DNA of 62,334 bases, counting the filler, from Platydemus manokwari (taxonomy: Eukaryota): the NCBI GenBank assembly GCA_037951405.1. It is 6 parts of 6 records of this genome, joined end to end, with 100 filler letters (N's around TTAATTAATTAA, not from the genome) between each part and the next. Parts side by side here need not be neighbours in the genome. Positions count along the whole stretch, not along the records: positions 1 to 9,289 come from JBBMOY011271429.1; 5 more parts are not named here. One strand, 5' to 3'. Position numbers and translations under genes: made by a program. Below are positions 1-61,052 of this stretch, in pieces. Under the pieces are notes generated by a model. That model was not told the DNA's origin and ran no database searches. It saw only the letters and a list, made by a program, of their open reading frames with translations. How positions within the stretch are numbered: position 1 is the stretch's first letter; the number at the start of each line of letters is the position of its first letter.

Positions 1-97
1 ATAGATTCACCTTTTCAAGAGCTTTTAAATGGTACCAAATGTTGCGTAGCTATGTTATGTTTAAATGATTTGGTAAATCAAAAACTTTAAACAACTA

Positions 98-122
98 AAA
101 AACATGAATAACTTTTGACTCA
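98..122. repeat. Dispersed repeat fragment truncating the Gypsy element
   Basis: AAAAACATGAATAACTTTTGACTCA matches the reverse complement of ~43425-43449. Confidence 0.6.
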
Positions 123-125
123 GCC

Positions 126-480
126 TAATATATCTTCGTTTTATCTTTTGGGTACAATCATCTTTGAATGACACGTATGGTTCAAACAAGTAGACACATG
201 ACGACCTTAGGTTATTATATGTAACCTTTTGTCTATGTCTTCCAAATAGACTTTCGCTCTGTTTCTTCCTTCACGTAATAATAACGACATTGACACAAGC
301 GGATTACTATCGCATTCACAATCACTTTGAAATAAAATTCCGGCATCTTCGGGTTCCTTTGTGTTTCATCCTTGGCTTCTGCTACCAGTATCAGTGCTAA
401 TATACACAATGGCATCCAAAACCATTTGTTTAACTTCACTTCGTACCTGTAGTTACTGTTGCTACTGTTCTTGTCCTGGA
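126..480 (-). pseudogene. Post-integrase ORF remnant with a signal-peptide-like N-terminus (possible second envelope/secreted protein)
   Basis: KWFWMPLCILALILVAEA|KDETQRNPKMPEFYFKVIVNAIVI follows the integrase end. A shifted frame continues to ...DDCTQKIKRRYI before truncation. Confidence 0.45.
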
Positions 481-514
481 AAGTAGCGCATGTTGGCTAG
501 GTTCTATCTCTGTT

Positions 515-1215
515 ATTCATTTGTATCTATTTGCATGGACTTTCAACTGTCCAGCCTGTTCTTTTCTTTTTAACTCTAAATTAGTAGGCGTCACTAACTT
601 CACAGTGTACAACCCTTTAAATGTTCTCTGCAACTTTTGAGAGAGTCCTTTTGCTAGTTGATGGGTATCTACTAATACCCGTTCCTCTACCTTAAACTGG
701 TGAGGCTTTGCCTTTTTATCGTATGCTTCTTTATAGCTCTTCTAATTATACTTAATTTGTAATCCGGCCCTCTTCCAAGTTATCGGCATTCTCTCCTGCA
801 TCTCTGTTCTGTAAATCCTTTCCTATATCTGTCAGTATTTTTCTTGGTCATCCATACAGGAAAACTATCTCTTCCACGAATATCTGGGCAATCTTTTCTG
901 CTTTATGGTTTGGAATCTCGAAAGCTTCCGGCCAACGCGTGAGATAATCGCAAAATACTAAAATATATCGGTTTCCTTTAGTTTTCTCTGACAATTGTCC
1001 CATAGTACACATTGCTGTGAATTCCATTAATTTTGAAATTATGTCTATTGGCTGTAGTGGCAATCTTGTCTTGGTTCCTTTATTTCTTCGTGTTCTACAT
1101 ATTTCGCATGTCTCGAACAATTTTCTAACACCAATAATTCCTTTTCAGCCTCTGAAACGTCTTTCTTGCTGATAGATTCTCTCCTAGAGTTCCATCATGT
1201 TACTGTAGCAACAAC
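515..1215 (-). pseudogene. pol: Integrase (H2C2, partial core, GPY/F C-terminal region), internally deleted
   Basis: HDGTLGENLSARKTFQRLKRNYW...CEIC; GNRYILVFCDYLTRWPEAF; FKVEERVLV...KKLQRTFKGLYTV...VHANR. Confidence 0.92.
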
Positions 1216-1554
1216 GCATCTTGTTCGGCTTTTGGAATTACAAATAACTACCCTCTATTGTCCTTGTATTTTGATACCTCATTCTTCATTACATAATTTG
1301 TTCCATGGGTTCTCAAGTAAATTTTCTTTCTACACACTTTATTTGCTGTTTAATTCTCTTCTCTTCTAATTGTCTTTCTTTGAATGCTATCTCCGCGGCG
1401 ACTGCTTCTTCGGCATCACTTACATTTATTTCTGTGTATACACTATTTGTATATTTCTGCGAATACACTATTTTCTACTGTCATCGTCAAGGTTTTTCAT
1501 GTTTGTAATGGGCATTTTCTAATTATTCTTTGTTCTCTACTTCTTCTTGAGGCA

Positions 1555-1900
1555 TCCTCGACAGAGCGTCTGCATTAGATTTTGCTCTTCCTGTTCAGTA
1601 TTTGATCTCAATGACAAATTCCTGCAGTATCAAAGCCCAACGAATCAGCTATTGGCCTATTCTCTATGCTTCAATAACCATTGTAATGTTCTATGATCTG
1701 TACAGAGAATTATTTTTCTTCCCCATAAATAATGTCGAAACCTCTTGACAGCAAATGCTATTGCTAAAGCTTCTTTTCCTATTGTCGCATAATTCTTTTC
1801 ATGCTTCTTTAAACCTGTACTTCCGTAGGCTATAGTATCTGTCATGAGCAAAAATGGTTTATTCATGTCCGGGGATCGTAAAAGCGGTTCCTTTATTAAA
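1555..1900 (-). pseudogene. pol: RNase H (Ty3/Gypsy type), disrupted
   Basis: PFLLMTD, KNYATIGKEALAIAFAVKRFRHYLWG, CTDHRTLQWL, NADALSR. Confidence 0.93.
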
Positions 1901-1999
1901 CATTCGTCTTGCTCGAAAATGATATCATTCAATTTCTTCTTTGAAGCCTTCTTTGGCTTTTCGTTTATCTCCTCAGAGCATATCATATAATGCGTCTAC

Positions 2000-2822
2000 T
2001 ATTCAGGTATAATTTTTAATAAATCTCTTGTCGTATCCTGCTTGTCCTAAAAATTCCCTAACTTCTTTAATATTTGTCGGCACTGGATACTTCTGTACTT
2101 TTGCTACATTGTTCGGGTCTGGCTTAATTCCATTTCTAGAGACAACGTGTTCAACGTATGTCACTTCTGGTTTAGCCCAATCACGGTTTGGTAGGTTTAA
2201 TTTTTAAGCCTGCTCAACTTTATCTTTTTAGGACACTCACTATGTCTTCGATATGCTTGTCCACATCTTCTGAAAAGATAATTATATCATCTAGATATAC
2301 TATTTCATGAGATATATCCATCAATAAGATGTTCATCATTCTTTGAAATTTAGCAGATGCTCCTGTTAATCCAAAAGCCATCTTATGAAATTCATATAGT
2401 CCTTTGGTCGTTGTCTAGGCTGTAATTTCCCTGCTTTCCTCTTCCATTTCTACTTGGTGATATCCTTTTTGCAGATCTATGACTGAAAATATCACTGCTC
2501 TCTTTTATCTGTCAAACATCATGTCAATTACTGGTAAACGGAACGTATCTTTTCTAGTCACTTCGTTAACCTTCCCATAATCTATACAAAATCTTTGAGT
2601 TCCATCTTACTTCTTTTCTAATATAAAAGGTGATCTCCATGGTGATGAACTCTCTTTTATAGTTTCATTACTTAACATTTCTTGGAGCTGTTTATCCACT
2701 TCTCCTTCTAAAGCACATGACACTCGATATGGTCGCTGTCTGATCGGCGTCGTATATGTTAATATAATCTTTTGTTTCAATATAGTACATTTCCCTAAAT
2801 CGTACTTGTTTTTATCAAACAC
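2000..2822 (-). pseudogene. pol: Reverse transcriptase (Ty3/Gypsy type), disrupted
   Basis: PIRQRPYRV, ESSSPWRSP, DGTQRFCIDY, IDLQKGYHQV, GLYEFHKMAFGL, FQRMM, VYLDDIIIFS (~2275-2300). Confidence 0.95.
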
Positions 2823-3234
2823 ATCATGATACTTCCTAATTTCGTTTAGTAACTTTTTCTACAAGTTTTCATTGAACATCTGGATTTCGATTGTAATTGG
2901 CTTATAACTCACGACTTCGCTAATGTTTCCAATGACCGTTTCTAATTCCAGGGTGACAATTTCTTCATCCTCATGTCTAGCTTGAGTCTTCTAGTTCTTT
3001 CTTCAAAGTTCGTTATACGAATGGGTATTTTTCCATTCTTAATTTGCACTTCTTGATCCTGAACATTAAACTCCTTGGCCATTCATTCGTTTGGTTCAAG
3101 CAACATTGGCTCTGATCCTTGTATGTCTGTCTGCGCAAAGCATACTACTACCGATCGTTCTGCTATTATCACTGTTCCTGTCACATATGCTTCATCTTGT
3201 TTTCTTTTCCTCGTTTCCTTTTCATTGCGATTTA

Positions 3235-3520
3235 GTTTCCGGTGGCCAAATCAAACACCACTCCGTCCATTTGTCCTAAGATATCCATTCCTATTATTAC
3301 TTCGAGAGGGCAATTTTTCATTACTCTCAATTCATGAGTGAACTTGTATTCACTTACTTGCACTTTGCATAAGATTTTGCATTCAAATGCAATTTTCTCT
3401 CCTGTAACGGTTCTAGGTAACCCTACTCCCGTGAGTAGCTCTAACTCTTCCTTAGTTCACAATTTATGTGAGATAATTGATACATCTGTTCTTGAACCAT
3501 TTCGTAGTCATTAACTTTCA
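3235..3520 (-). pseudogene. Retropepsin aspartic protease (degenerate)
   Basis: FFKVKVNDYEM, then (frameshift) GSRTDVSIISHKL as a remnant of DxGAxVSII, and CPLEVIIGMDIL, the I(L/I)GxDxL motif. Confidence 0.75.
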
Positions 3521-3569
3521 CTTTGAAAAAATCTTACTGTGATTTGATTTATGTACCATATTTATTCTG

Positions 3570-5691
3570 TTATCCGGTATTGGAAACCCTGTTCGAGCCC
3601 AACTGTCTGCCAAGTGAGTTTTTGAATTTAGCTTCAATGATTTAGTAATTGAATACTTCTCTTTAAAATTTACTAATTCATTTTTCAGATACAATTGTTC
3701 CAATTCACATGGTGCTGTGGGTTGTTTTGTTTAACATCTGAACGTTTTAGTTACTGAGCTTAATCTTTTTAATGATCCTGATCTGGTTCTGCTTGGATTG
3801 AGTTCTATACCTGATTCGCTATCTATCCTCAGTTGATTTTTCAATAATCCTTCCTCTTCTTTTTCTGTCGAATCCCTGTTATTATCTTAGTAGGTAGCAG
3901 TTTCTGGTTGTCCTGATATATTTAATTTTTCTTTCAATTTTCTTATTTACTGTTGCTTCTCCAGTAACACAAATTTAGCAATGAAAGGTATACACACTAT
4001 CAATGCGTTCCATGTTCATTCTAGTACTTTTATTAGTGGGTATGTCGAAATAATCTGATTCAACAACATAATTATTACAACTTATAAAAGCAAATTCCTA
4101 TAAATGCTGATACCACATTTCCTATGGCTAAAAATCCTCCCCGTGTCCTGTGAAGAAAAGTCATTGCTGGTCTGTTAAATTGGTCTGGTGCTTATAGGTT
4201 CCCGAAGTTCGACTTCTCTTCGCCTCCTTGCAATACTAAATCTACCATTTTGTTCTGACCTCTCTTTCTTGGCTCAATGGAAACATTAAGTTTCTCATGT
4301 CTTGACGGCTTGAAATCTAGTCCTTATTCCAGTCTGATATTTTCTAAATTAACTACCTTTTTTGTTGGTTCCTTGCTTGGCTTTTTATACCATACTCCGT
4401 TAAGAGTATACAGCGGTGCTGACATACCGTTGCACTGCATCGTTTTTGCTTTAACATTCTTATTCACCAGTATCCGAGATATTGCTTTTAAGAGTCTATT
4501 TTACCCATTATAAACAACAGGTAGTTCATTAGTACATTCTTGTTGTGTTCTTAATGGACCGTTATCTCATTTATAACTATATAATGCTTCACCCATTATT
4601 CTAGCAAAAATTCCTTTCTCTGGTAACAACATCGGTGCTATTAACTTTGGATTATTGACTAATATCAAAAACCTATTTCTCAATATTTCTCTATTGAGTC
4701 TACAATCGTTAAGAATCATGTCATAATAAACATTCTTGATCTGATCCTGAATTGTGTGATTCAAATAATCTTACTAATAAATAATATTACAAATAATCTT
4801 ATTACTAACATCGATATTGTTCCTGATATCCGCTTCTCCAACTTTCTTTTCTTGTTTTTGATACTAGTATTCCTGGATTGTTCGTATGGTAGATACTTCT
4901 CTAACATCCTACCGTCTTTTCTTTTCTGATAAATCTCATACCTTCTTTCTTGTTTACGCTGACCAAAGCTATTGGGGCTTCTTCTAGTTCTAATTCTCGT
5001 GTTGCTGTTCCTTCTTTCAGGGTGGCTTTCAAATCCCGAATTGAGTCCTTAATTATTTCTCCTTTTGTTCGGAAGAATTCAGCTGAGCTTATATAAGCTA
5101 ACTGGCATGTCATTGGCCGTAACTCACATACTAAAGTTGCTTGTCCGGTAAAACAACTAGTTACTTTACTAGTGTAGTTCGGATATGATAACATCGCTCC
5201 TAATTTCTCATCAAAAACTTCTTCTACTTCTCTTAACTCGGTTTCATAATCATAGATAGTAACTATATTATATTCATAGTATTTTCCTCTATTAATCGTT
5301 TGTCCAGTTCATAGACCATCACCGTATTTATTACACCTTTTTCTACTGTGAGAGTCGTTTTTTTTAACAATTCTTAACTTTTTTGTTCTTGGTATTATTT
5401 TGGCAGAGACTATTGATGCATGACTGTTATATCCACAATAGTATTCTTATTTAGCTCTCTTTGCTCTTCATTCTCTTACCTTTGCCCTTCTATAGCCAGT
5501 TTCTTGATATGCATGGTATATAACTTTTGTCGTGTTTATCTTCATCGGTCGTGCCTCTAGGCAATCTTCTAAATCCACTAGCGAATATATCTTAGCTGAG
5601 GTTTGTCGAAATCGAATGCTTTTATGGCCGCAGTTCCTGTCCTATTAAATAAACTCATTATCATGATTATTATTAACAATATCATTCGCAT
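3570..5691 (-). pseudogene. env: Envelope-like glycoprotein, chuvirus-type / class III (herpesvirus gB-like) fusogen family
   Basis: Signal peptide MRMILLIIIMIMSLFNRTGTAA; AFD..SLVDLEDC; YYCGYNSHASIV (~5410-5445); DCRLNREILRNRFLILVNNP...GIFARIMGEALYSYK; ECTNELPV...ISRILV...QCNGMSAPLYTLNGVWY; hydrophobic GGFLAIGNVVSAFIGICF / VIIMLLNQII / WNALIVCIPFIAKFVLL (4140-3962); then a hydrophilic tail. Confidence 0.82.
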
Positions 5692-5699
5692 CTGTGCTC

Positions 5700-6660
5700 C
5701 TAATTCTATGTTCGGTGTTTCTCTCACTTTGGATGGTTTGGGTTTGCTCTTCTCTTTGATCAGTCCTTCCCATCCGAAGTGTCTATTCACCCATGGCTCG
5801 ATATATTTTTCCAACAAAGTGGCCATTTTTCCTAGATATTCTTGGTACTTCTGTGGTGCTTTATAGTTACTCCATATAGCTTTCGTATCATGAAGTCTAT
5901 AGATATTTAAGCTTTCTCGCGTCCCATTGCTCCTTGAGCAAAGCTTCTGATGATCTCTTCGTCATCCTCTTTTTCATCTGATATGATGTGTTGAATTTGA
6001 TTTTCTACCCCCACTAATTCAGTCCTCAATTTCCTAAATAACTCATTGTCTATTAGATCTTGTAAGTCTGTTGGTGAGGTTAATTCCGGATGTAGCAATT
6101 ATATGCTTTCTCCAACATGTCCTCTGCATGTGTTGATGCCTCCTGTGGGACCTACGAAATTGATGCTTTAAACCTTTATTTTTGCAACCTTTGTGCAATA
6201 ATGAGCTTCAATTAGCTCATTAAAATGTCCTGCCATATTCAACATTATGTGCATCGGTCTCGTATTCTCTTGGTATGTCCTAGGATATAATCCAAATATT
6301 GCTAATAGCACTTTGATTTCTGGTGCAAATGTACTAAATTCTTGAAGGTGAGTTCTGCTTTTATCTATTAATTCTCTAAACACATGTAGTGGAACTATTA
6401 CCCCAAATACCATCTCATATATCTCTTTTATTTTTGTGTTCGAGGCTGCTTTTGAAATTCCTCAATTAATTCTTCGGGAATTCTTTCCAACTGATCTTTA
6501 TCGTCTAAATCTAAGACGATTATCACTTGTTTACCTTCTTTATTTATTTCTTTAATCAATTTATCCTTTTTCTTCTTATTTTGCCTTGCCAATTGAAGGC
6601 GTAATTCATCTATTTTTGCATAAAGTTTTACTCTCTCATCACCTTGAGATGATACATAAT
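5700..6660 (-). pseudogene. Unknown ~320-aa domain between Gag and glycoprotein (weak SGNH/GDSL-hydrolase-like pattern)
   Basis: Coding-like frames continue from Gag: RVKLYAKIDELRLQL...VIIVLDLDD..., then ORFs 6168-6413, 5907-6098 and 5578-5826. The SGNH resemblance is by eye only. Confidence 0.5.
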
Positions 6661-7990
6661 TGACTCAGGGTCTTCCCAGCGAAGTGTTTTTCCAACCTTG
6701 CCTCTTTTTGATTCTTCACAGACTCTCGCCATGTGTCCTGTTTTTCCGCATTTAAAACATAGAGCGTATCCTATAACATTTACTTTTTCTCTGCCTGGTT
6801 TCTTGAATCAGCAGGTTTCCTCTGAATGTCCTTTCCTCTTGCAGTGTTGACAAACCTTAGTTCGACAATCTTCTGCTTTATGTCCATTAATTCCACAGTT
6901 GGAACATACCGAAACTTTATTGCTCTTCTTTGGAGATCGTCAATCTTTTGCTCGATGTCCTTTTCTATCGCAATTTTAACATCGCAAATCTCTCTGTTTT
7001 GGTAAAGTATGCTTCCTTTTCTGGTTTACTCGAGACTGGGGCAATTGCAGTACTGGTTTTCTTGATGGCAATTTCAACTTTCATTGCTTTATCCCTCATA
7101 TCTTTAAACTCTTTAAATTCCAATACCGTTAATGGTACTCTAATTGCTTCTTGATTGATTTCTTCTTTTACTTCTGCGGACCACAATACTCGCTGTCCAT
7201 GTACTCCTTCAGCGATTCTAAATAATCGGTAATCATATGCACCCACCGTTTCTTTTTTTCTGTCTTATCTGCATTAATTGCTGCTTGCGAAGTCTTCTGA
7301 CGTCGCCAATTCTTAAACTGTTTCTTAATGCCGTAACCAAGTCATTCCAATTTTTCATTTCTGATACTTGATTAAGGCATTCCTAAGTTCAGTAAATGGG
7401 TAGTCTGCAGCACATAGTTTCTGAATTATAACTGTATGCTTTGGCAATTTCATAATTTTCCGCCATAAAATCCTTAAATTCCAAGAGGTCTCCTCCGTAA
7501 GTCTTTACGGGTAATTTTACGCTGATCATCATCCTTGATTGGCACTCAAGGTCATCATAACCATATCTGCTTGGTTTAGAGCTGCTTTTGTCTCCCATTC
7601 TTCGTAAGAATCTTGTTAAGTTTTCTATTTCTAGTGCTACCGAATCTGGTATTTCTCTGTCCTTTCGTTGACTTTTTCAGACAAGTTGTCTCTGTCTTGT
7701 TGTGCTTCCAGTTTGTCTTCTATCTTCTGATGCACTTCGTTTGCCAGAAGACGCCCTTGTCTGTTTAATAATTCTATAAGCTTGTTTCTCTTGAAACTAA
7801 GCCTTCTTGTTTTCTTCTGAGTTTCTTTTCTGTGAACAGATCAGTCTTCGGATAACACTTTCTAATTCAAATCTTTGACTACCTTCTGACGACTCCAAGT
7901 CTTCTAACTGCTTCCTAATTATTTAAAATTGCTTTGGCTTGTTTCTTTTGACTGAGTTCTGTTTTTTCTTTCTTCTAACAATTCTTGTCT
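6661..7990 (-). pseudogene. gag: Gag (capsid-like region plus three CCHC zinc knuckles)
   Basis: Capsid-like 'KLPVKTYGGDLLEFKDF...' at ~7520-7470. Knuckles CSNCGINGHKAEDC, CQHCKRKGHSEETC and CFKCGKTGHMARVC lie in one frame at ~6906-6718. Start position uncertain. Confidence 0.88.
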
Positions 7991-8030
7991 TCTGATATTA
8001 TGACAATCGTCTACTTATTGCCTCCGATTT

Positions 8031-8106
8031 TATAGTGATATTTTGCTAGCAGCACTTGCAGCAAAGTTTCATACTACCGAGTTCACATGCGCAGTCAACT
8101 TCTACA
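8031..8106 (-). repeat. Possible shortened 5' LTR remnant
   Basis: Minus strand begins TGTAG and ends CTATA (one change from CTACA) just upstream of gag. No partner LTR is visible to confirm it. Confidence 0.25.
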
Positions 8107-8732
8107 TTTAGATTGATATCACCCGATATTAATCAATAATTCCTTTTCTGAAAAATTGGGTGGGTATAATTAATTAATACATTAAAACAAATTGTAATTT
8201 CTTAATAATAATTTTAAATTCTTTATTTATTCAAATGATTATTTTGCTTACTAATGATTTAATTTTAAAATTATTTTCTACTTTATTTATTTTAAGTAGA
8301 ATAAATTTATTTTCTTTATCTTTTAACTTATCTTTATTTTTATATTTTTCATTATGGGCTCTTCAATTTAATTACTTTTACATTAGCTCACTTTAGTTTC
8401 CAGTAGTCGTATATTTATTCAATTATTAAATTTGTGTTTAAATATATATTTATCACAATTGATCTTTTGATTTCTACTTTATCTTTTATTGATGAAATGA
8501 GATTTGGATAATATGTCTTATTTTCGAACCAATTTTTTTATCTAATTACCTTTCAAATTGAGGTCTAAAATATTTAAACATTATCCCTACATATTCGGTT
8601 TCTATTTTATTGCTTTGTAGAAATTTTATGTTTAATTTTTTCCCTAAATAAAGGTATTATTTTAATCATTTTTTGTTGGTATAATTATTTTATCATATAG
8701 CTCTTTATTTTTCTTAATAGAAAGTTATCTCA

Positions 8733-8970
8733 ATTGTGGAAGTGGCAATCAATAGGCGAAAGGTCTGGTTGATCAGGGAGTTCCAATTCCAGTGCTTTTA
8801 GTTGTGGCACAGTTATTTGCGCAGTGTGTGGTCTAGCATTATCATGCATAAAGATAGGAGTCGATATATTGAACAATATAGGCTGTTTTTACTTTAATTT
8901 TTTGAATAGATTACAATATACTTCTGCCTTGATCGATAAAGAATGCTTGTTGAAATCATAATGGATAGAA
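8733..8970 (-). mobile_element. mariner transposase fragment
   Basis: IHYDFNKHSLSIKAEVYCNL...PIFMHDNARPHTA...PDLSPIDCHF (HDNARPH and YSPDLAPxD-like motifs). Confidence 0.9.
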
Positions 8971-9289
8971 TTATTGACTAAAAATTTCATTCTCAAGTGC
9001 CTCTACCTAATATTTTTTATATTTCTAAATCTACAAATTTATTATCGTTTATATTTCTAAATTACCTTTTATTACCACCAAAAATGTATTTCCTATCATA
9101 TATTTCATCTATTGAATTAATTATCGTGTTATCCTGTCTAATCAACAAATTCTACATTTTGCCTTTAATATTTTGATTATGATGTTTTTATTTTTCCGCA
9201 GTCATTTATTAGTACAATCAAATTTTTAATCGTTAGCCTCAAATTCAAAATTAAAGAATTAAATTTTCAAAAAATTATATGAAAGGACA

Positions 9290-11126: not shown

Positions 11127-11520
11127 TTACGAAATTCTGATCATTTTGTCAATATCATCCACATGTGACTTCAAAATAGCCCATTGCTCGGGTTTAAGGC
11201 AAATACCTAAAATCAATTAAAGCTCTTTGTAAATAATTATGTTAAATTACCTTTTTTAGATGGCTTCAATTCACCGTGACTATCAGCATAAAACTCTCTT
11301 ATATCAACAAACGTTTTGTTTTTAAACTTCCTAACCTTCGCGTATTTCTTTTCACCTAAATCAAAACCTAATTCATTATCAACTGTTTGAGGCTTCTTTT
11401 TAACTGTTGGCTATTTATTATCAATAATAAATATCGGTAAAACTAAGATCTTACTTCATCTTCAATGCTACTTAGATCAGAAGACTCTTCAGCCTTTTCT
11501 ATTTTTCTTTTAGGAGCCAT
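11127..11520 (-). CDS. SUB1: Transcriptional coactivator PC4/SUB1 (101 aa; exons 11520-11455, 11410-11251, 11206-11127)
   Basis: Spliced product MAPKRKIEKAEESSDLSSIEDE|PTVKKKP...FDLGEKKYAKVRKFKNKTFVDIREFYADSHGELKPSKKG|ICLKPEQWAILKSHVDDID contains the PC4 ssDNA-binding signature. Two 44-bp GT-AG introns keep the frame. Confidence 0.95.
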
Positions 11521-13908: not shown

Positions 13909-14601
13909 ATGTCCAAAGAAATAATTTTCGTATCTGGAAACGTGAATAAAATTTCCGAAATGAAGAAAATTTTAGACGATTCTCGAATAAAAGTTTATTT
14001 GATTTTCCAGTTTTCCATTGACTTCCATTGGCTAGGTGATTTCTCAGAAAATTGATTTACCCGAATATCAAGAAAGTATGGTGGAGATCAGTAATTTAAA
14101 GGCCAACCATGCTTATTCAATTCTAAAGAAACCTGTGTTTGTTGAAGACACAAGCTTGTGTTTTGCAGCTTTGCATGGTATGCCTGGACCATATGTGAAA
14201 TGGTTTGTCAATGGAGACAAATTACAAACCTTGGAGAAATTAAAAGGTTTAACAAAGTTGACCAGAATTGTGGGAACTATTAATGACGCTCATCTTCAGG
14301 GTTCAGGAAAATGCTTGTCGGATTTGATAATTTTCAAGCAGAAGCCGTCACAGTTATTTCTTATTTTGATCCACAAATAATGGACGAGCCAAAAGCTTTT
14401 GTTGGCAAAGTCGAAGGTCAAATTGTCGAGCCAAGGGGCTCGTTAAATTTTGATTGGGATTGCGTATTCGAACCTAAGATTCAGTGTCAGAAAGTTCCGC
14501 AAACGTACGCTGAAATGGATATCAATTTTAAAAATCAGATGTCCAACCGATATTTAGCCGGTCAACAATTTAAGCAATTTCTCATTAATCAATATTTTTA
14601 G
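13909..14601 (+). CDS. ITPA: Inosine triphosphate pyrophosphatase (HAM1 family; 198 aa; exons 13909-13992, 14036-14246, 14300-14601)
   Basis: IIFVSGNVNK, IDLPEYQ, VEDTSLCFAALHGMPGPYVKWF, GQIVEPRG, QTYAEM. Introns of 43 and 53 bp (GT-AG) restore one frame. Confidence 0.95.
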
Positions 14602-40654: not shown

Positions 40655-43070
40655 TACAAGATTTATTCAATACAATTTTGTTGGGTTTATTGGATTGATT
40701 GTGACCTGCTTTGGTTTGAAAGCTTTGATTCGTGAATTCAATTTTCCTTTTTCATTCATTCATCTCGGCTTTCCGTTGGGTAGAAATTTTTTATTTTGTG
40801 TTGGATAAAATCTATAAAAACACCGTTCTAGTGAAATTACCAGATTTTTACCGAATGTTCAATATTTAAAATTGCGCATTCTTTGACCAGGTTTTGGGTT
40901 TTATTTTTCGGCACGCGAATTTTCGACAAATTTTCTTAGTTGATGCCGGAACTGTATCGAGTGAGCCTATAATGCACGTGAAAAGCTCAATATTGAAATC
41001 TGGCTTCAATTTGGCTAGCTCATTCTTAAAATCGGTATAATGAATTAAATTATTTTTGTTTGACTCCTCAAAGTTCTTTTTGACATTTCATGTCTACTAG
41101 GAAGATCTTTTTTCGCTCTACATCAGTAATCAATAAATCGATGCTCTCTTTTCTTTCCGGTAACAGTGAGCACATTTGGTTCACTACTACAATAATATAT
41201 TTTGTTCAAAGACAGTCAATAATTTTGTTCAGGTATGCACCATGGCGAGTATTTTGTAGCTTTTTGTTTGGGTTGCAACACTGTAGTACATGTGTCATGG
41301 TTTCAGGGAAACCAAGGCAACGTCGGCACTTTTGGAATTCCTCGTTTATCTTCCAAGGCGATGCATTAATTGCTAGAGTATTTGTTCTAGCTGACGAATG
41401 GACTTAAACGCAAAAGATTTCACTTGACTACGAAAAATCATCTTATTGTTTCGTGGAGATAGCCTTATTGGATCTGCTATGAAATTACTGCGTTTACTGC
41501 TGTCTTGAATAATGAGATTCTTTAATCAATTGATGTGAAACAAGACATAGTTGTTTTCGATTACGAGAACCAAAGTTGTAAGTACCGCAAAATCAAATGT
41601 CATCCTCAAGTGTGTTTCATCTTAACGAATTCAAAAATCAAGAAATTTTGTGAGTATTTTGAAAATATTTCACACCATTGATAACATGTATCCAAAAATC
41701 TTTTTAGGGTTTTCTTTAGATGGCTTCAATGGCCTCAAGTACTGAATATAGAACAGCCTTGTTTGACTCCTCTTTGAATGAGTCTACAAACATAAAATAA
41801 ACTTATATCAGTGTAGAACAATTCAAGAATATACACTAAAGAGTCATTTACACCTATAAATCGCAGCAGACCTCATAGAAATTCATGTGGAACGCTGGGA
41901 AAGGCGTTGACAATCTCAAGCCAAGCAACATAAATGAACAGTATATTTTAAATGTTCAAAACCAGCATTTAGAATAGATTTGTGTTCAATATAACCTTCC
42001 TATATAGAACCACCTTTTACCTCTGTTGAGCAAGTTATAATCTCTTATCCAATGCTCTAATCTTCTAGTCAAGATTGACAAAAAAATTCTATATTAAATT
42101 GATATTAAGTTATTGTTCGCCAGTTATTTATATTTTTATATTGGTCATCTTTACTAGGTTTTGGAATGAGGGTTGTCTTAAACTTTCGCCAATCGTCTGG
42201 AAATTTATGAGTCGAAATGACTTTATTATGAAGTGGAGATAGAAGAATACCTCCTGGATCTAAGAGTAAAAGGTACGGTATTATTTTGTCATCGCCAGGT
42301 GAGGTGTTGTCTGCGGATTTAAAAATAGAGTGAACTTCACTTGGATGAATAGGTTCTAACTCTAATTTATCAATGACAGTTTTACAATACCGATTATTAT
42401 AATCACACGCGGTTGGGCACAGTTTTCCTGAGAAAACCACTAATTATATCATCAGTAGATGGTCAAGAATTGATTTCATCATCATTAACCATATCATTAA
42501 TGGTCTTTCTCATGTTTGTTAAAAAGATCATTTTTATGTTGTAATCGTTAGTTTTTTATTGAAACCTTACTTTACTCCTAATTATGGTTGATTTCGATTG
42601 TCATTTTGATTTTGTATTTTATTCGAAAAGCAGTTAAAAGTTTTATTCAAGTTGACATTTGGATCACGACATTTACAATTCTTCTCTTACTTTTGTTATT
42701 TTTACTCATTCTTTGAATATTTTAAAAATATATTTAGTCTTTATTTTCCATAACATTATCGGTGATTAACAGATTATCAAGACCATCCATATTATTCAAA
42801 TAATTGGATATTATGTCAAAATTGATATTCAAAAATGACAAATTTTTGATATAGTTAAGCAGATAACCGCATAAAAGAATATTTGAGAAAAGTCCAGAAC
42901 TGCGAGTTTCATATTCTTCATATTGGACAACAATGAAATGATCTTTCAAGCCCCGTAGTTCTAAGATGGAATTAGTAATCATTTGACCAAATGATAAATC
43001 GATCATTGTAAGTTTAAGTTGTCGTAATTTAGAACGGAGACAACATTTTGGGCCAAGTGAAGTGTTGGGT
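40655..43070 (-). mobile_element. Non-LTR retrotransposon with RT and restriction-like endonuclease (NeSL/Utopia-like), decayed copy A
   Basis: TSPGDDKI, WRKFKTTLIPK, NINNWRTIT, AFPSVPH; zinc knuckle CRRCLGFPETMTHVLQCC; RH; IDLLITDVERKKIFLVDMKC (RLE). Homologous to 47985-50510. 5' end approximate. Confidence 0.88.
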
Positions 43071-47399: not shown

Positions 47400-50300
47400 T
47401 TTATTCAACGAATTCTCTCCTTCATTAAAATTCGGATTACTGATTAAAATAATATTTTAGCAGATGATAAACAAATATCATCAAGTTTTAAACTTAAATA
47501 AGTTCGGTCAAGGTTCTTTAAATAAAAATATATGACCATTAGATCCGCATATCAATATTTTCAGACAGAAAAATGGTTATGACTGTGGTCCACTTGTATG
47601 CGCATATAGTTAATTTGTAAGCTATATAAGCAAACAATTCATCAACCCAAACTTTATTAATCGCATCCGATAGGAAATCTACCTTTTACAGTGTGATAAA
47701 GTGAATCACATATCACAATTAGGTTGTAATGGCAACATGAATAATAATGCCAATTATAGTAGACTAAATTTTAAAATTAACGAAAATATTTTTAATGAAT
47801 TCTCTAATCAATATAATACGACGGATGAAGTAATGTTTATAGATTATACCTTAACCACTGTCATCCGCGATGAATGTACGGATTATTTGAAAAACTTTCT
47901 TCATTTGGATAAATTGATTCAAGCTTCCACGATCTTCGTAATGTTTAGGCCTCCAAAGGCTCATCGATTGCTTTTAGTTATTGACTTTGCCCTAAGTGTT
48001 GTCTTCGTTCTAAATCCGATAACTTTAATATGTAGTGATCAATTTATATCTTTGGGCCAAACGATCACCAATTGCACATTAGAACTGCAGGGCTTAAAAG
48101 AATCTTTCGTTGTTGTCCAATATGAAGAATATAAAACTCGTGGTTCTGGACTTTTCTCAAATATTCCTTTATGTGATTATATGTTTAATTATTATATAAA
48201 ATTTGCCGCTTCTGAATATCAATTTTGACGTGATATTCAATTATTTGAATAATATTGATGGTTTTGATAATCTGTGAAACACCGACAATGTTATGGAGAA
48301 TAAAGACCAAAAATGTTTTAAAAATACTCAAAGAATGAGTAAAAATAAAAAAAACATAAACGAAAAATGTCGCGAAATATTGAAAAAAGTCGAGAACTCC
48401 AATCCAAATGACATATTGAATGAAATTTTCAACTGCTTTCCGGATAAAATACAACACCAAAATAATAACCGGAATAAACCATATTTGGAAATAAGTAAAG
48501 GATTTAATAAAAAAACTAACGATGGCAACATGACAAAATTACAAACAGTGGTGTTCACTTTTAGATCCTGAAGGTATTCTCCAAACTCACAGTTTTAATG
48601 AAGTAATTAAGACTCATAAATTTACAGACAATTGGCGAAAGTTTAAGACAACCCTCATTTCAAAGCTTGGTAAAGATGGTCAGTATAAAAATATAAATAA
48701 CTGGTGAGAAATAACTCTCTTATCAACTTCATACAAGATTTTTATGTCAATCTAGACTTGAAGATTAGACCATTGGTTTAGAGATAATAACTTGCTCAAC
48801 AGCTGTCAGAAAGGTGGTTCCAAATATGAGGGTTGTATTGAACACAACGCCATTCTAAATGATGCTTTTGAACATTTAAAACATACTCGACATTTGTCCA
48901 TTTCTGTTGCTTGATTTGACATTGCAAACGCCTTTCCAAGTGTTCCACACACACACACAAGCCATTGAAATTCTATCAGTTCCTAGTTTCTAAATAGGAA
49001 TTAGGTCTGTTAAGATGGTATTGCTTTGATTGCCAATAATACTCCTGATCTTCAAAAACTAATCGATAAAGTTGTTGAAATAACTGAATGGGCTGGTTTA
49101 CAATACCGTCAAGACAAATGTACCTTTATAAGTTTACTACACGAAAACACTGATGATGTAATATCTATTGATATTGTAAATATTAAAAAATTGTTGACTA
49201 AAGAATTTTACATGTATTTTGGTGTCCCTGTTGGTGTTAAAAATGATCAATCTTCTTACGAAATTTTGAACAAACTTGTAATTGATCTTGGTAAAATAGT
49301 CAATTCTGAATTATAGGATTGGCAAAAGCTTAATGTTTATATAATTTTCTTGCACTCTGGACTTGTATATGCGTTTAGAAGTAGAGAAATCAAATTTTTT
49401 TGTAGTGAAAGAGAAAAGTAGTAAAATACAAGCTCACATGAAGCAATTACTTCATTTACCAAATCAAGCTGAAAATTATTATCTTTATTCAGCGATAGTA
49501 AATGGGGATGTTGAACTTTTCGCATTCATTGATGAATATCACCTTCAATACGTTTTCCAAGTATTTTTTAAAAACTCTTTTAAAATCTGATTGTTCACTG
49601 AAAAAGATAATTATCTATGATTCATTTTGCTTTGTTTCTTCTACAAGATTTTGTATTGCCAATCCATCAATTAATGAAAGCCTTAAATGGATCAATAATA
49701 AAAATCCATAGAAAATTCTGCTTTTAAAATGACATGGTAGATACATGTTATCAATGCTGTGAAATACTCACAAAATTAGCTTTATTTTTGAATTTGTTAA
49801 AAATGAAACTTACTTAATGCATCGCCCCGGAAGACAAATGAGGAAAACCAAAAATGCCGAAATTGCCACAGTTTCCTGAAACCATATCTCATGTACTACA
49901 ATGCTGCAATCCGAACAAAAAGCTACAAACTGCTCACCATGATGCATGCCTGAACAAAATTGTTGACTGTCTTCAATAAAAAAATATTATTGTAGTAGTA
50001 AATCATGTAGTAGACATGAAATGACCGATTGACACACTACAAAACTTCGAGGAGTCAAATAAAAATAATATAATTCATTATACCGACTTTAGGAATGAGC
50101 TCGCCAAATTGAAACCAGATTTCAATATTAAGCTATTCAGGTGCATTACAGGCTCACTTGGTACAGTTCTGTCCTCAATTTGGCTGTTCCGGAATCAATT
50201 TTGGCGAAAATTGGTGTGCCGAAAAATAAAATCCGAAACTTGGTCAAAGAATGTGCAATTTCAAATATTGAACATTTCTCGAAAGTCTGTCATTTTCACT

Positions 50301-50510
50301 CGACCGGTGTTTTGGTAGATTTTATCTAACATAAAACACAATCAAACAATTCCTATCCACTTAAAAGCGGAGATGAATGAAAAAAAAGCAAAATTGTTAC
50401 ATGATGTGCCTCTACTGCGCCAATGACTTCACGAATCAAAGCTTTCAAACCGAAGCAGGTCAAAATCAATCCAATAAACCAAACAAATTTGTATTTAAAT
50501 AAATCTTGTA
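47400..50510 (+). mobile_element. Non-LTR retrotransposon with Ulp1-like protease motif, RT and RLE (NeSL/Utopia-like), decayed copy B
   Basis: RQKNGYDCGPLVCAY (47563-47607); ITLLSTSYKIF; CQKGGSKYEGCIEHNAIL; DIANAFPSVPH; YMYFGVPVG; CRNC..PETISHVLQCC; 3' UTR shared with copy A. May extend 5' to ~46600. Confidence 0.88.
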
Positions 50511-59880: not shown

Positions 59881-61052
59881 ATGACTTATAATAGTTTAAA
59901 GTTTAGTAAAAATGAAAATTATAATAACTTTAATGGAATACTTAATCAAAATCCAATAATTATCACAAAAACAGACGCTTTTAATTTTAATTATACAGAT
60001 ACAGATAAATTGAGATTGGCACAACTACTTGTTAAAAGAGATTTAAAAAATATTAAAGAACAAGTTAATAAGATACCAGAAACTAGCATAGCAGAACCAG
60101 TTAATGATAAAAAGATTTGTATGTAAACCATTTTTAACTAAAATTGAAATTTATTTATATATCTTAGGCGTGAAATCAAAGAAAATTTCAAAGACAAATA
60201 TACCAAGAGAAAGAGTATCATCTATCAAAAGAGTTCCAGGTCCACAAACACCTAATAAAGTAGTTATAAAGAAAAACATGCCAATTAGAAGCATTTCACC
60301 ACCAACCAGAGATAATGATCGAATATGGCAACCAATGAAAATCAACGAAGTTTCAACCAAAGTAATGTATTGACAAAATGAAATAACTTTTATAACAAAA
60401 TATTTAGAAGGAAAATGAAATGGACAAATTAAGAACTAAAGTCGATCTTTGTGCCAGCAAACTGGATGGGTTGGAGAGACATCTTTTGGCAAGATCTGCA
60501 AATGTTAATCCGCAACCAATCCTTTCCCAGCTGATGATGCCGGAAAAGCCACCGAAATCAAAAGAAGAATTGAAAATCCTATCCGACAAATTACAGCAAT
60601 TAATGAATACAAATATCCGTCCTGAAATTCATGGGCAACATCAGCCTCCATTGGCTACTCAGTCGCCCATCAATGACAATTTCGATATGATTCTATCAAA
60701 ATTGAATCATTTATTATCTGGCATGAATAAGATCCAATCTCGATGGAATCAAATAGATTATGAAAACATTTCGTTGTGTAGCAATGACGAATTGACTGAT
60801 GACGAGATGGCGAACAGCGAGTTACGATTTACGAAAATAAAATTGCCCACATGGCAAGACACGATTGATGTGGACAAAATCGATGATGGGAAAATTGAAT
60901 TAGATTTGGCTAAACAAACGATTTATCAATTGGATCAAACTCGATTACCATATCGAGAATCGTACGAGTTCTTTGGAATGCCTTTGAAAATCTTGCACGT
61001 TGATTGGTTGTCGACAGATCTGGTAAATTATCAATTTATTTTATTCATTTGA
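59881..61052 (+). CDS. KIAA0753: Moonraker/KIAA0753-like centriolar protein (exons 59881-60118, 60168-60361, 60408-~61050; 3' end uncertain)
   Basis: NSLKFSKN...NPIIITK...FNYTDTDKLRLAQLLVKRDLK resembles the Moonraker N-terminal NQLQFNRN...ERLxxAVxLAxRDVK; SPPTRD motif; introns of 49 and 46 bp join three ORF-track ORFs in frame. The gene is well supported; the family call is from recalled motifs. Confidence 0.6.

What the first reader, a model, noticed from the sequence alone, without database searches (positions are those of the whole stretch)
3518..5830. Evidence that Gag-X-Env-Pol was one membrane-threaded polyprotein
Seen: the glycoprotein signal peptide (MRMILLIIIMIMSLF) lies inside ORF 5578-5826, in frame with upstream domain X and after a basic stretch (KEKSKPKPSKVR). 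After the membrane segments, one frame runs about 185 codons (4078-3518, only isolated point stops) to 'RINMV', immediately before the protease, with no intergenic spacer. Similar xxNxV motifs (EKVNVI in Gag, RINMV) resemble Gypsy protease junctions. Inference: Gag stays cytosolic, the internal signal exports the ectodomain, and the TM anchor returns the chain to the cytosol for PR-RT-IN. That is a flavivirus/alphavirus-like topology processed by signal peptidase plus retropepsin, which would be very unusual for an LTR element.
Basis: partly seen in the sequence, partly recalled or inferred. Interest (0 to 1): 0.8.

Follow-up and report, generated by a model that had tools for sequence, protein, structure and literature searches.

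The report
Dead Burro-type retroelement, envelope inside polyprotein
This is a broken copy of an animal retrotransposon whose intact relatives encode capsid, a virus-like fusion protein and the replication enzymes in one reading frame, a layout already published for planarian Burro elements, and that giant protein likely threads through the membrane before being cut up.

Summary
Observation partly confirmed; interpretation largely right but not new. Window 8150-230 (minus strand) is a decayed, multi-copy Ty3/gypsy element ordered Gag-X-Env-PR-RT-RH-IN. The signal peptide and the 187-codon linker frame exist: the linker has 4 internal stops (2.2%, as in RT; shuffles average 14). But this copy changes frame inside X, after the signal, at the membrane anchor and at the protease, so it cannot itself show one ORF. 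Intact relatives do: 10 of 12 examined hold Env and protease in one ORF, 5 of 12 also RT. Env is a herpes-gB-type fusogen, and X ends in a Bcl-2-like stretch. This is the published Burro layout (PMC6431247; GAG-ENV-POL also PMC13524379), and the scan noted it before in other genomes. Hydrophobicity supports a cleavable internal signal and one anchor, leaving Pol cytosolic (inferred, untested). The xxNxV argument is weak. Not found in print: 5 of 5 relatives extending past integrase carry a second signal-like segment, 4 of 5 a further membrane anchor. New member of a known kind; interest 0.33.

The parts
6965..8150 (-). Gag N-terminal and capsid-like region, broken by stops and frame changes
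   Evidence: Low stop density 8150-7260 (8 of 297; 2 of 2000 shuffles); no Pfam hit; capsid label is by position and by eye
6718..6975 (-). Four CCHC-type zinc knuckles (the first broken)
   Evidence: Pfam zf-CCHC E 1e-12, three stretches; coordinates
6104..6664 (-). Domain X, first part: helical cargo region that in relatives precedes a possible ubiquitin-like domain
   Evidence: 6455-6201 matches pre-Env regions of single-ORF relatives P0155 (E 8e-5) and P0007 (E 0.006) in a small local search; ubiquitin-like only weakly, ISG15 E 0.14
5761..6100 (-). Domain X, last part: Bcl-2-like stretch ending in a BH2-like motif (5826-5761); frame change near 5856
   Evidence: 57 of 57 PDB hits for 5862-5700 are Bcl-2-family or fusions of it, best E 0.09; profile with two relatives E 4e-5; the upstream piece 6113-5850 alone has no Bcl-2 hit
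5722..5757 (-). Basic stretch on the cytosolic side of the signal
   Evidence: Sequence
5626..5691 (-). Internal signal peptide of Env with predicted signal-peptidase site two residues before the AFD motif
   Evidence: KD 2.14 over 19 aa; small residues at -3/-1 as in 10 of 12 relatives
4125..5625 (-). Env ectodomain, class III (herpes gB-type) fusion glycoprotein, broken (stops; frame changes near 5585 and 4850)
   Evidence: Pfam PF24664 E 2e-24 and 5e-5; relative P0004 folds like herpes gB, E 1e-13
3962..4124 (-). Membrane anchor and a second, amphipathic hydrophobic stretch (4015-3962); frame change near 4080
   Evidence: tblastn to Env tails of relatives; hydrophobicity
3554..3961 (-). Coding linker between Env tail and protease, ending at RINMV
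   Evidence: Stop density; relatives have 77-337 residues between the Env tail motif and the first protease motif
3232..3553 (-). Aspartic protease (retropepsin), broken by frame changes; active-site motif not intact
   Evidence: Pfam RVP_2 E 0.0015; translation
2943..3250 (-). Coding spacer between protease and RT (position of the dUTPase-like region of Burro)
   Evidence: 1 stop in 102 codons; no Pfam hit
1545..2950 (-). Reverse transcriptase, connection and RNase H, broken
   Evidence: Pfam RVT_1 E 2e-22, RT_RNaseH E 1e-19; RT 44-53% identical to 7 relatives
517..1330 (-). Integrase, with about 100 residues of the core missing near 812
   Evidence: tblastn jumps from P0155 residue 2341 to 2444 at one place
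233..496 (-). Open frame after integrase with a second signal-peptide-like stretch (424-374)
   Evidence: 0 stops in 87 codons, 6 of 2000 shuffles; KD 1.62; no similarity to relatives' post-integrase modules at E 0.5

Best explanation
This is a decayed copy of a Burro-type Ty3/gypsy retroelement whose intact relatives encode Gag, cargo, a gB-type envelope protein and Pol in one reading frame, and whose polyprotein likely threaded the ER membrane. Shown: the domain order, the coding nature of the linker, single ORFs in relatives, the gB-type fold of a relative's Env. Inferred: Gag and X are made in the cytosol; the internal signal enters the translocon and is cut by signal peptidase on the luminal side, so it would remain as a C-terminal anchor on Gag-X (giving the Bcl-2-like domain a tail anchor); the ectodomain is translocated; one stop-transfer helix returns the chain to the cytosol, where a second amphipathic helix lies on the membrane surface; the retropepsin then frees capsid, nucleocapsid, RT and integrase. 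In relatives a second signal after integrase would export one more type I membrane protein. This copy is dead.
For: Best phmmer hits for the Env piece (242 hits, 150 listed) are fused forms. Of 12 examined (the top 9 plus three long ones), 10 hold Env and protease in one ORF, 5 also RT, 2 a Pfam Gag marker; 3 of 3 cluster members hold Env and protease, 2 also RT and integrase; P0005 and P0038 run from a zinc knuckle (by eye) to integrase. Linker stop rate equals RT's. Frame changes are general in this copy: 10 among 11 aligned pieces against P0155, most inside Env, RT, RNase H or integrase. Deeper contigs of the family differ in length at breaks near 3525, 5856 and 6664. 12 of 12 relatives with the Env start motif have a hydrophobic core before it, 128-870 residues inside the ORF; 10 of 12 fit the -3/-1 rule at the same spacing; 8 of 12 have no Met in the stretch printed before the core. 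13 of 13 have one main anchor (KD 1.38-2.24); the second stretch reaches 1.6 in 1 of 13. Published precedent: Burro.
Against: This copy has no continuous frame at any junction, and relatives are distant (Env 22-36%, RT 44-53% identity), so the single ORF is carried over from the family. One search lists only part of its rows (349 letter rows and 6 length rows not shown) and shows no row at the breaks near 5585 or 4080. The second stretch after the anchor is fairly hydrophobic (1.01-1.71; 1.81 in the window, with a stop counted as zero), so a hairpin is not excluded. P0152 has a further strong hydrophobic segment between Env and RT (KD 2.26) with only a weaker partner (1.3), and P0038 one before the signal (1.63); parity holds only if these pair up or do not cross. 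P0004 ends after the anchor. Only Kyte-Doolittle was used, no SignalP or DeepTMHMM. 138 of the 150 listed hits were not examined one by one. Structure did not confirm Bcl-2.
Confidence: 0.72

Rival explanations
1. One ORF exists in the DNA, but Env is made mostly from a spliced or subgenomic RNA starting near the signal, and Gag-Pol from an RNA that skips env; membrane threading of the full chain is minor.
For: The window's signal begins with Met, and 4 of 12 relatives have a Met just before or at the start of the core. Spliced env is the rule in Drosophila gypsy and retroviruses (recalled). One low-depth contig skips 3127-4095, though in a run not recorded as RNA, so it may be a deleted copy.
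Against: 8 of 12 relatives lack such a Met; the linker and X keep coding-level stop depletion right across the junctions, which skipping would not require.
Confidence: 0.15
2. In this lineage gag, env and pol were separate ORFs, joined at most by programmed frameshift or read-through, and the breaks at the junctions are original.
For: The copy changes frame at each junction; the eLife paper describes GAG-ENV-POL as an arrangement of ORFs and allowed gaps up to 2 kb in its search.
Against: The breaks fall inside domains (inside the Bcl-2-like stretch, after the signal, inside the anchor, inside the protease start), the same kind occurs throughout Pol, and deeper contigs differ at several of them.
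Confidence: 0.08
3. Env has two membrane crossings after the ectodomain, so downstream Pol would face the lumen unless released or made separately.
For: A conserved second hydrophobic stretch in 13 of 13 relatives and the window.
Against: It is amphipathic, holds Lys or Arg, and reaches KD 1.6 in 1 of 13; RT and integrase must act in cytosol and nucleus; the basic-led second signal after integrase fits a cytosolic integrase.
Confidence: 0.05

Closest known systems
Burro / GYPSM1 gypsy-like LTR retrotransposons of planarians (Arkhipova and Yushenova 2019, PMC6431247; abstract start, passages and section 7 read, figure not seen; Grohme 2018 not held)
   Same: Gag with several CCHC knuckles, then cargo ending in BCL2-like, then env related to mononegavirus glycoproteins, in frame between gag and PR-RT-RH-IN.
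   Different: This element is compact (about 8 kb of coding region seen, against 4,873-5,140 aa ORFs); no MATH, BIR or ankyrin hit; host not determined; no Burro sequence was compared directly; section 7 says nothing on topology or a post-integrase membrane protein.
GAG-ENV-POL errantiviruses with HSV/gB-type env in Nematoda, Bryozoa, Platyhelminthes (Chary and Hayashi 2026, PMC13524379; abstract, sections 5 part 1 and 14, passages, rows of supplementary file 1)
   Same: Ty3/gypsy Pol, gB-type Env, env before pol; ectodomain flanked by signal or TM and a TM.
   Different: The passages read treat GAG, ENV and POL as ORFs; the words polyprotein, in-frame, Bcl and fibronectin do not occur in the main text.
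Nematode endogenous retroviruses, NERV (Sacco et al. 2022, J Gen Virol; not held; citation seen; content recalled)
   Same: Env placed before pol; recalled as a continuous gag-env-pro-pol ORF.
   Different: Could not be read or compared; clade membership untested.
Flavivirus and alphavirus structural polyproteins (recalled)
   Same: Works like them by inference: internal signals, stop-transfer anchors, host signal peptidase plus viral protease.
   Different: No homology; class III rather than class II fusogen; retroelement enzymes.

Membership tests
Ty3/gypsy (Metaviridae) | Pol order PR-RT-RH-IN | tested here: met
   Pfam and tblastn
Ty3/gypsy (Metaviridae) | LTRs and primer-binding site | tested here: inconclusive
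   No self-repeat in the contig; the 3' end runs off the contig
Ty3/gypsy (Metaviridae) | RT groups with reference gypsy clades | not tested
   No named reference set was at hand; only identities to unnamed relatives
GAG-ENV-POL gB-type errantivirus | env between gag and pol | tested here: met
GAG-ENV-POL gB-type errantivirus | Class III, gB-like ectodomain fold | tested here: met
   PF24664 in the window; fold shown on relative P0004, mean pLDDT 80, herpes gB E 1e-13; 14 cysteines in 11 of 11 relatives' ectodomains
Burro-type elements | env in frame with gag and pol in one ORF | tested here: inconclusive
   Met in relatives; this copy is broken; coding-level stop density across junctions
Burro-type elements | Gag with two or three CCHC knuckles | tested here: met
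   Three Pfam stretches plus a broken fourth
Burro-type elements | BCL2-like domain directly before env | tested here: met
   By sequence only; P0004 Pfam Bcl-2 E 1e-3, below the curated cut-off, Bcl-xL E 6e-4; P0002 E 0.18; fold searches on a poor model inconclusive
Burro-type elements | Ubiquitin/SUMO-like domain before BCL2 | tested here: inconclusive
   ISG15 E 0.14 for the profile; no Pfam or PDB hit for the window piece
Burro-type elements | dUTPase-like region between PR and RT | tested here: inconclusive
   Coding spacer present, no Pfam hit
Burro-type elements | Giant size with MATH, BIR and ankyrin cargo | tested here: not met
   Gag start to integrase end spans about 7.6 kb; none of these families hit. 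So Burro-type in layout, not a Burro proper
Burro-type elements | Planarian host; sequence kinship to Burro1-4 | not testable with these tools
   No genome held; host-gene search empty

The most novel reading that the evidence does not exclude
This family makes a four-crossing polyprotein: the env signal doubles as the tail anchor of a Bcl-2-like death inhibitor and as the membrane tether of Gag, and a second signal after integrase yields a second, fibronectin-III-like type I membrane protein that would act as attachment protein or receptor decoy beside the gB-type fusogen, so that one ORF builds a two-glycoprotein enveloped retroelement.
Probability: 0.35. Interest if true: 0.65.

Novelty: new member of a known kind. 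Interest (0 to 1): 0.33.

Why it matters
If the topology holds, an LTR element would make capsid, envelope and enzymes in equal amounts from one membrane-threaded chain, without the splicing or frameshifting that retroviruses use, and would anchor Gag through a leftover signal peptide. The layout itself is published; what is open is how it is processed and what the post-integrase membrane protein does. This dead copy adds one more lineage, not a test system.

Tried and rejected
xxNxV as protease junction: the pattern [VIL]N.[VIL] occurs between Env tail and first protease motif in 4 of 11 relatives that could be anchored (2 more could not), twice inside the protease strand itself; P0007 has a similar stretch at the RINMV position, so the place is plausible but the motif is weak. 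Homologue search with X found nothing; the Bcl-2-like alignment recovered only its own members. Single-sequence model of P0002 1-127 was poor (pLDDT 47); Foldseek gave nothing under E 3 and VIA only generic helical bundles. Atlas: no lead for P0002 15-125; fibronectin-III families at 0.81-0.84 for P0154 300-610, a lead only. SUMO likeness seen by eye in X was not supported. N-glycosylation sequons do not mark the ectodomain (1-3 per ~540 residues). No RNA holder listed. No genome held. Whether other copies share each stop in the linker stays open. Literature: searches found no paper on topology or on a post-integrase membrane module; Sacco 2022 and Grohme 2018 were not held, figures were not visible, and one search found no further rows in the eLife supplements, so absence from print is uncertain.

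Full report
Setting. The window is a string of contigs joined by N spacers; the finding lies in the first, 1-9289. Its first 8 kb are 35-36% GC with strong strand skew, against about 25% GC elsewhere. No whole genome is held. The host looks like an AT-rich animal, but was not identified.

Anatomy. On the minus strand the order is Gag with CCHC knuckles, region X, a signal peptide, a glycoprotein (Pfam PF24664, E 2e-24 and 5e-5), membrane segments, a linker, protease, RT, RNase H and integrase. The copy is dead: against the intact relative P0155 it falls into 11 pieces with 10 frame changes, most inside Env, RT, RNase H or integrase, and about 100 residues of the integrase core are missing. No LTR is seen, but the 3' end runs off the contig.

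Observation. The signal lies inside ORF 5826-5578 after the basic stretch. Frame 4078-3518 has 4 internal stops; 4 of 186 codons matches RT (6 of 259) and is far below shuffles (mean 14.0; best of three frames as open in 3 of 2000). The half without homologue is weaker (38 of 2000). So the linker was coding. But the frame changes near 5856, 5585, 4080 and 3525, so this copy shows no continuous frame at any junction. The xxNxV argument is weak: the pattern recurs in 4 of 11 anchored relatives, and EKVNVI sits between zinc knuckles.

One ORF in relatives. A phmmer search with the second Env piece gave 242 hits; 150 were listed and 10 of these are 1200 residues or longer. I examined 12 (the top nine and three long ones): 10 hold Env and an aspartic protease in one ORF, 5 also RT, 2 a Pfam Gag marker; P0004 ends after the anchor and P0010 has no Pfam protease. 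Three cluster members all hold Env and protease, two also RT and integrase. P0005 and P0038 run from a zinc knuckle (seen by eye) to integrase. These are distant kin (Env 22-36%, RT 44-53%), unnamed except one record labelled as a bacterial MAG protein, probably mis-binned. For the family itself, 687 contigs of one run lie on 3000-6900 at 80-100% identity, so it is multi-copy, and deeper contigs differ in length from the window near 3525, 5856, 6102 and 6664; the table is cut and has no row near 5585 or 4080; the run may be the window's own source.

Topology. All 12 relatives with the Env start motif have a hydrophobic core before it, 128-870 residues inside their ORF; 10 of 12 have small residues at -3 and -1 of a cut two residues before the motif, as the window does; 8 of 12 have no Met in the printed stretch before the core (P0006 and P0152 are one cluster, as are P0008 and P0155). 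After the ectodomain 13 of 13 have one main anchor (KD 1.38-2.24) and a second, amphipathic stretch that reaches 1.6 in 1 of 13, 1.81 in the window. This favours one crossing and a cytosolic Pol. Against a clean count: P0152 has another strong hydrophobic segment before RT with a weaker partner, and P0038 one before its signal. No trained predictor was run. Cleavage by signal peptidase and retropepsin is inference from established knowledge.

Env and X. P0004, folded with 80 sequences (mean pLDDT 80), matches herpes gB at E 1e-13. The end of X matches Bcl-2 proteins only: 57 of 57 PDB hits, best E 0.09. The same position in P0004 hits Bcl-xL at E 6e-4 (behind one designed repeat protein) and Pfam Bcl-2 at 1e-3, and in P0002 BCL-2 at 0.18; the joint profile reaches 4e-5. 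The upstream piece alone shows no Bcl-2 hit, and folding gave no confirmation. The first part of X matches pre-Env cargo of P0155 and P0007; a ubiquitin-like fold there is only hinted.

After integrase. All 5 relatives that extend past integrase have a second signal-like segment; 4 of 5 end in a clear anchor followed by basic residues, P0070 in two weaker segments. Four share a short motif that by eye resembles fibronectin III, and the atlas points that way at 0.81-0.84, a lead only. The window has a signal-like stretch at 424-374 in an open frame, without similarity to these modules.

What is known. [quoted passage not shown] Chary and Hayashi (PMC13524379) report GAG-ENV-POL elements with gB-type env in Nematoda, Bryozoa and Platyhelminthes and cite Sacco 2022, which was not held. 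Two earlier notes of this scan describe the same kind in other genomes. My searches found no paper on processing or on the post-integrase module, but two key papers and all figures were unseen.

Verdict. New member of a known kind, interest 0.33; the four-crossing, two-glycoprotein reading has probability 0.35 and would merit 0.65.

Noticed in passing
P0003, P0005, P0070, P0152, P0155 C-termini; window 233-496: Second signal peptide after integrase, in 4 of 5 relatives followed by an ectodomain with a fibronectin-III-like motif and a membrane anchor, all in the same ORF.
   Followed up: partly
P0002, P0003, P0006, P0007, P0008, P0009, P0152, P0155: Several tandem retropepsin-like domains in one polyprotein (Pfam counts up to 7 stretches in P0152, which also has ankyrin repeats and C2H2 fingers and is 4844 aa, Burro-sized).
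   Followed up: no
window 14036-14601 (+): Host Ham1/ITPase gene in two overlapping frames, probably split by a small intron.
   Followed up: no
window 11237-11410 (-): Exon of a host PC4/Sub1 coactivator gene.
   Followed up: no
window 8730-8888 (-): Mariner-like transposase fragment by eye (HDNARPH motif, recalled); no Pfam hit.
   Followed up: no
window 40666-42996 and 48047-50498: Two 81-92% similar copies of another decayed repeat on separate contigs, opposite strands; weak RT hit at 49014-49313, probably a non-LTR element.
   Followed up: no
window 60408-61052 (+): 214-codon open frame with no Pfam hit.
   Followed up: no
P0005 (HBK71150.1): An animal-type retroelement polyprotein filed as a Flavobacteriaceae MAG protein, likely a mis-binned eukaryotic contig.
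   Followed up: no
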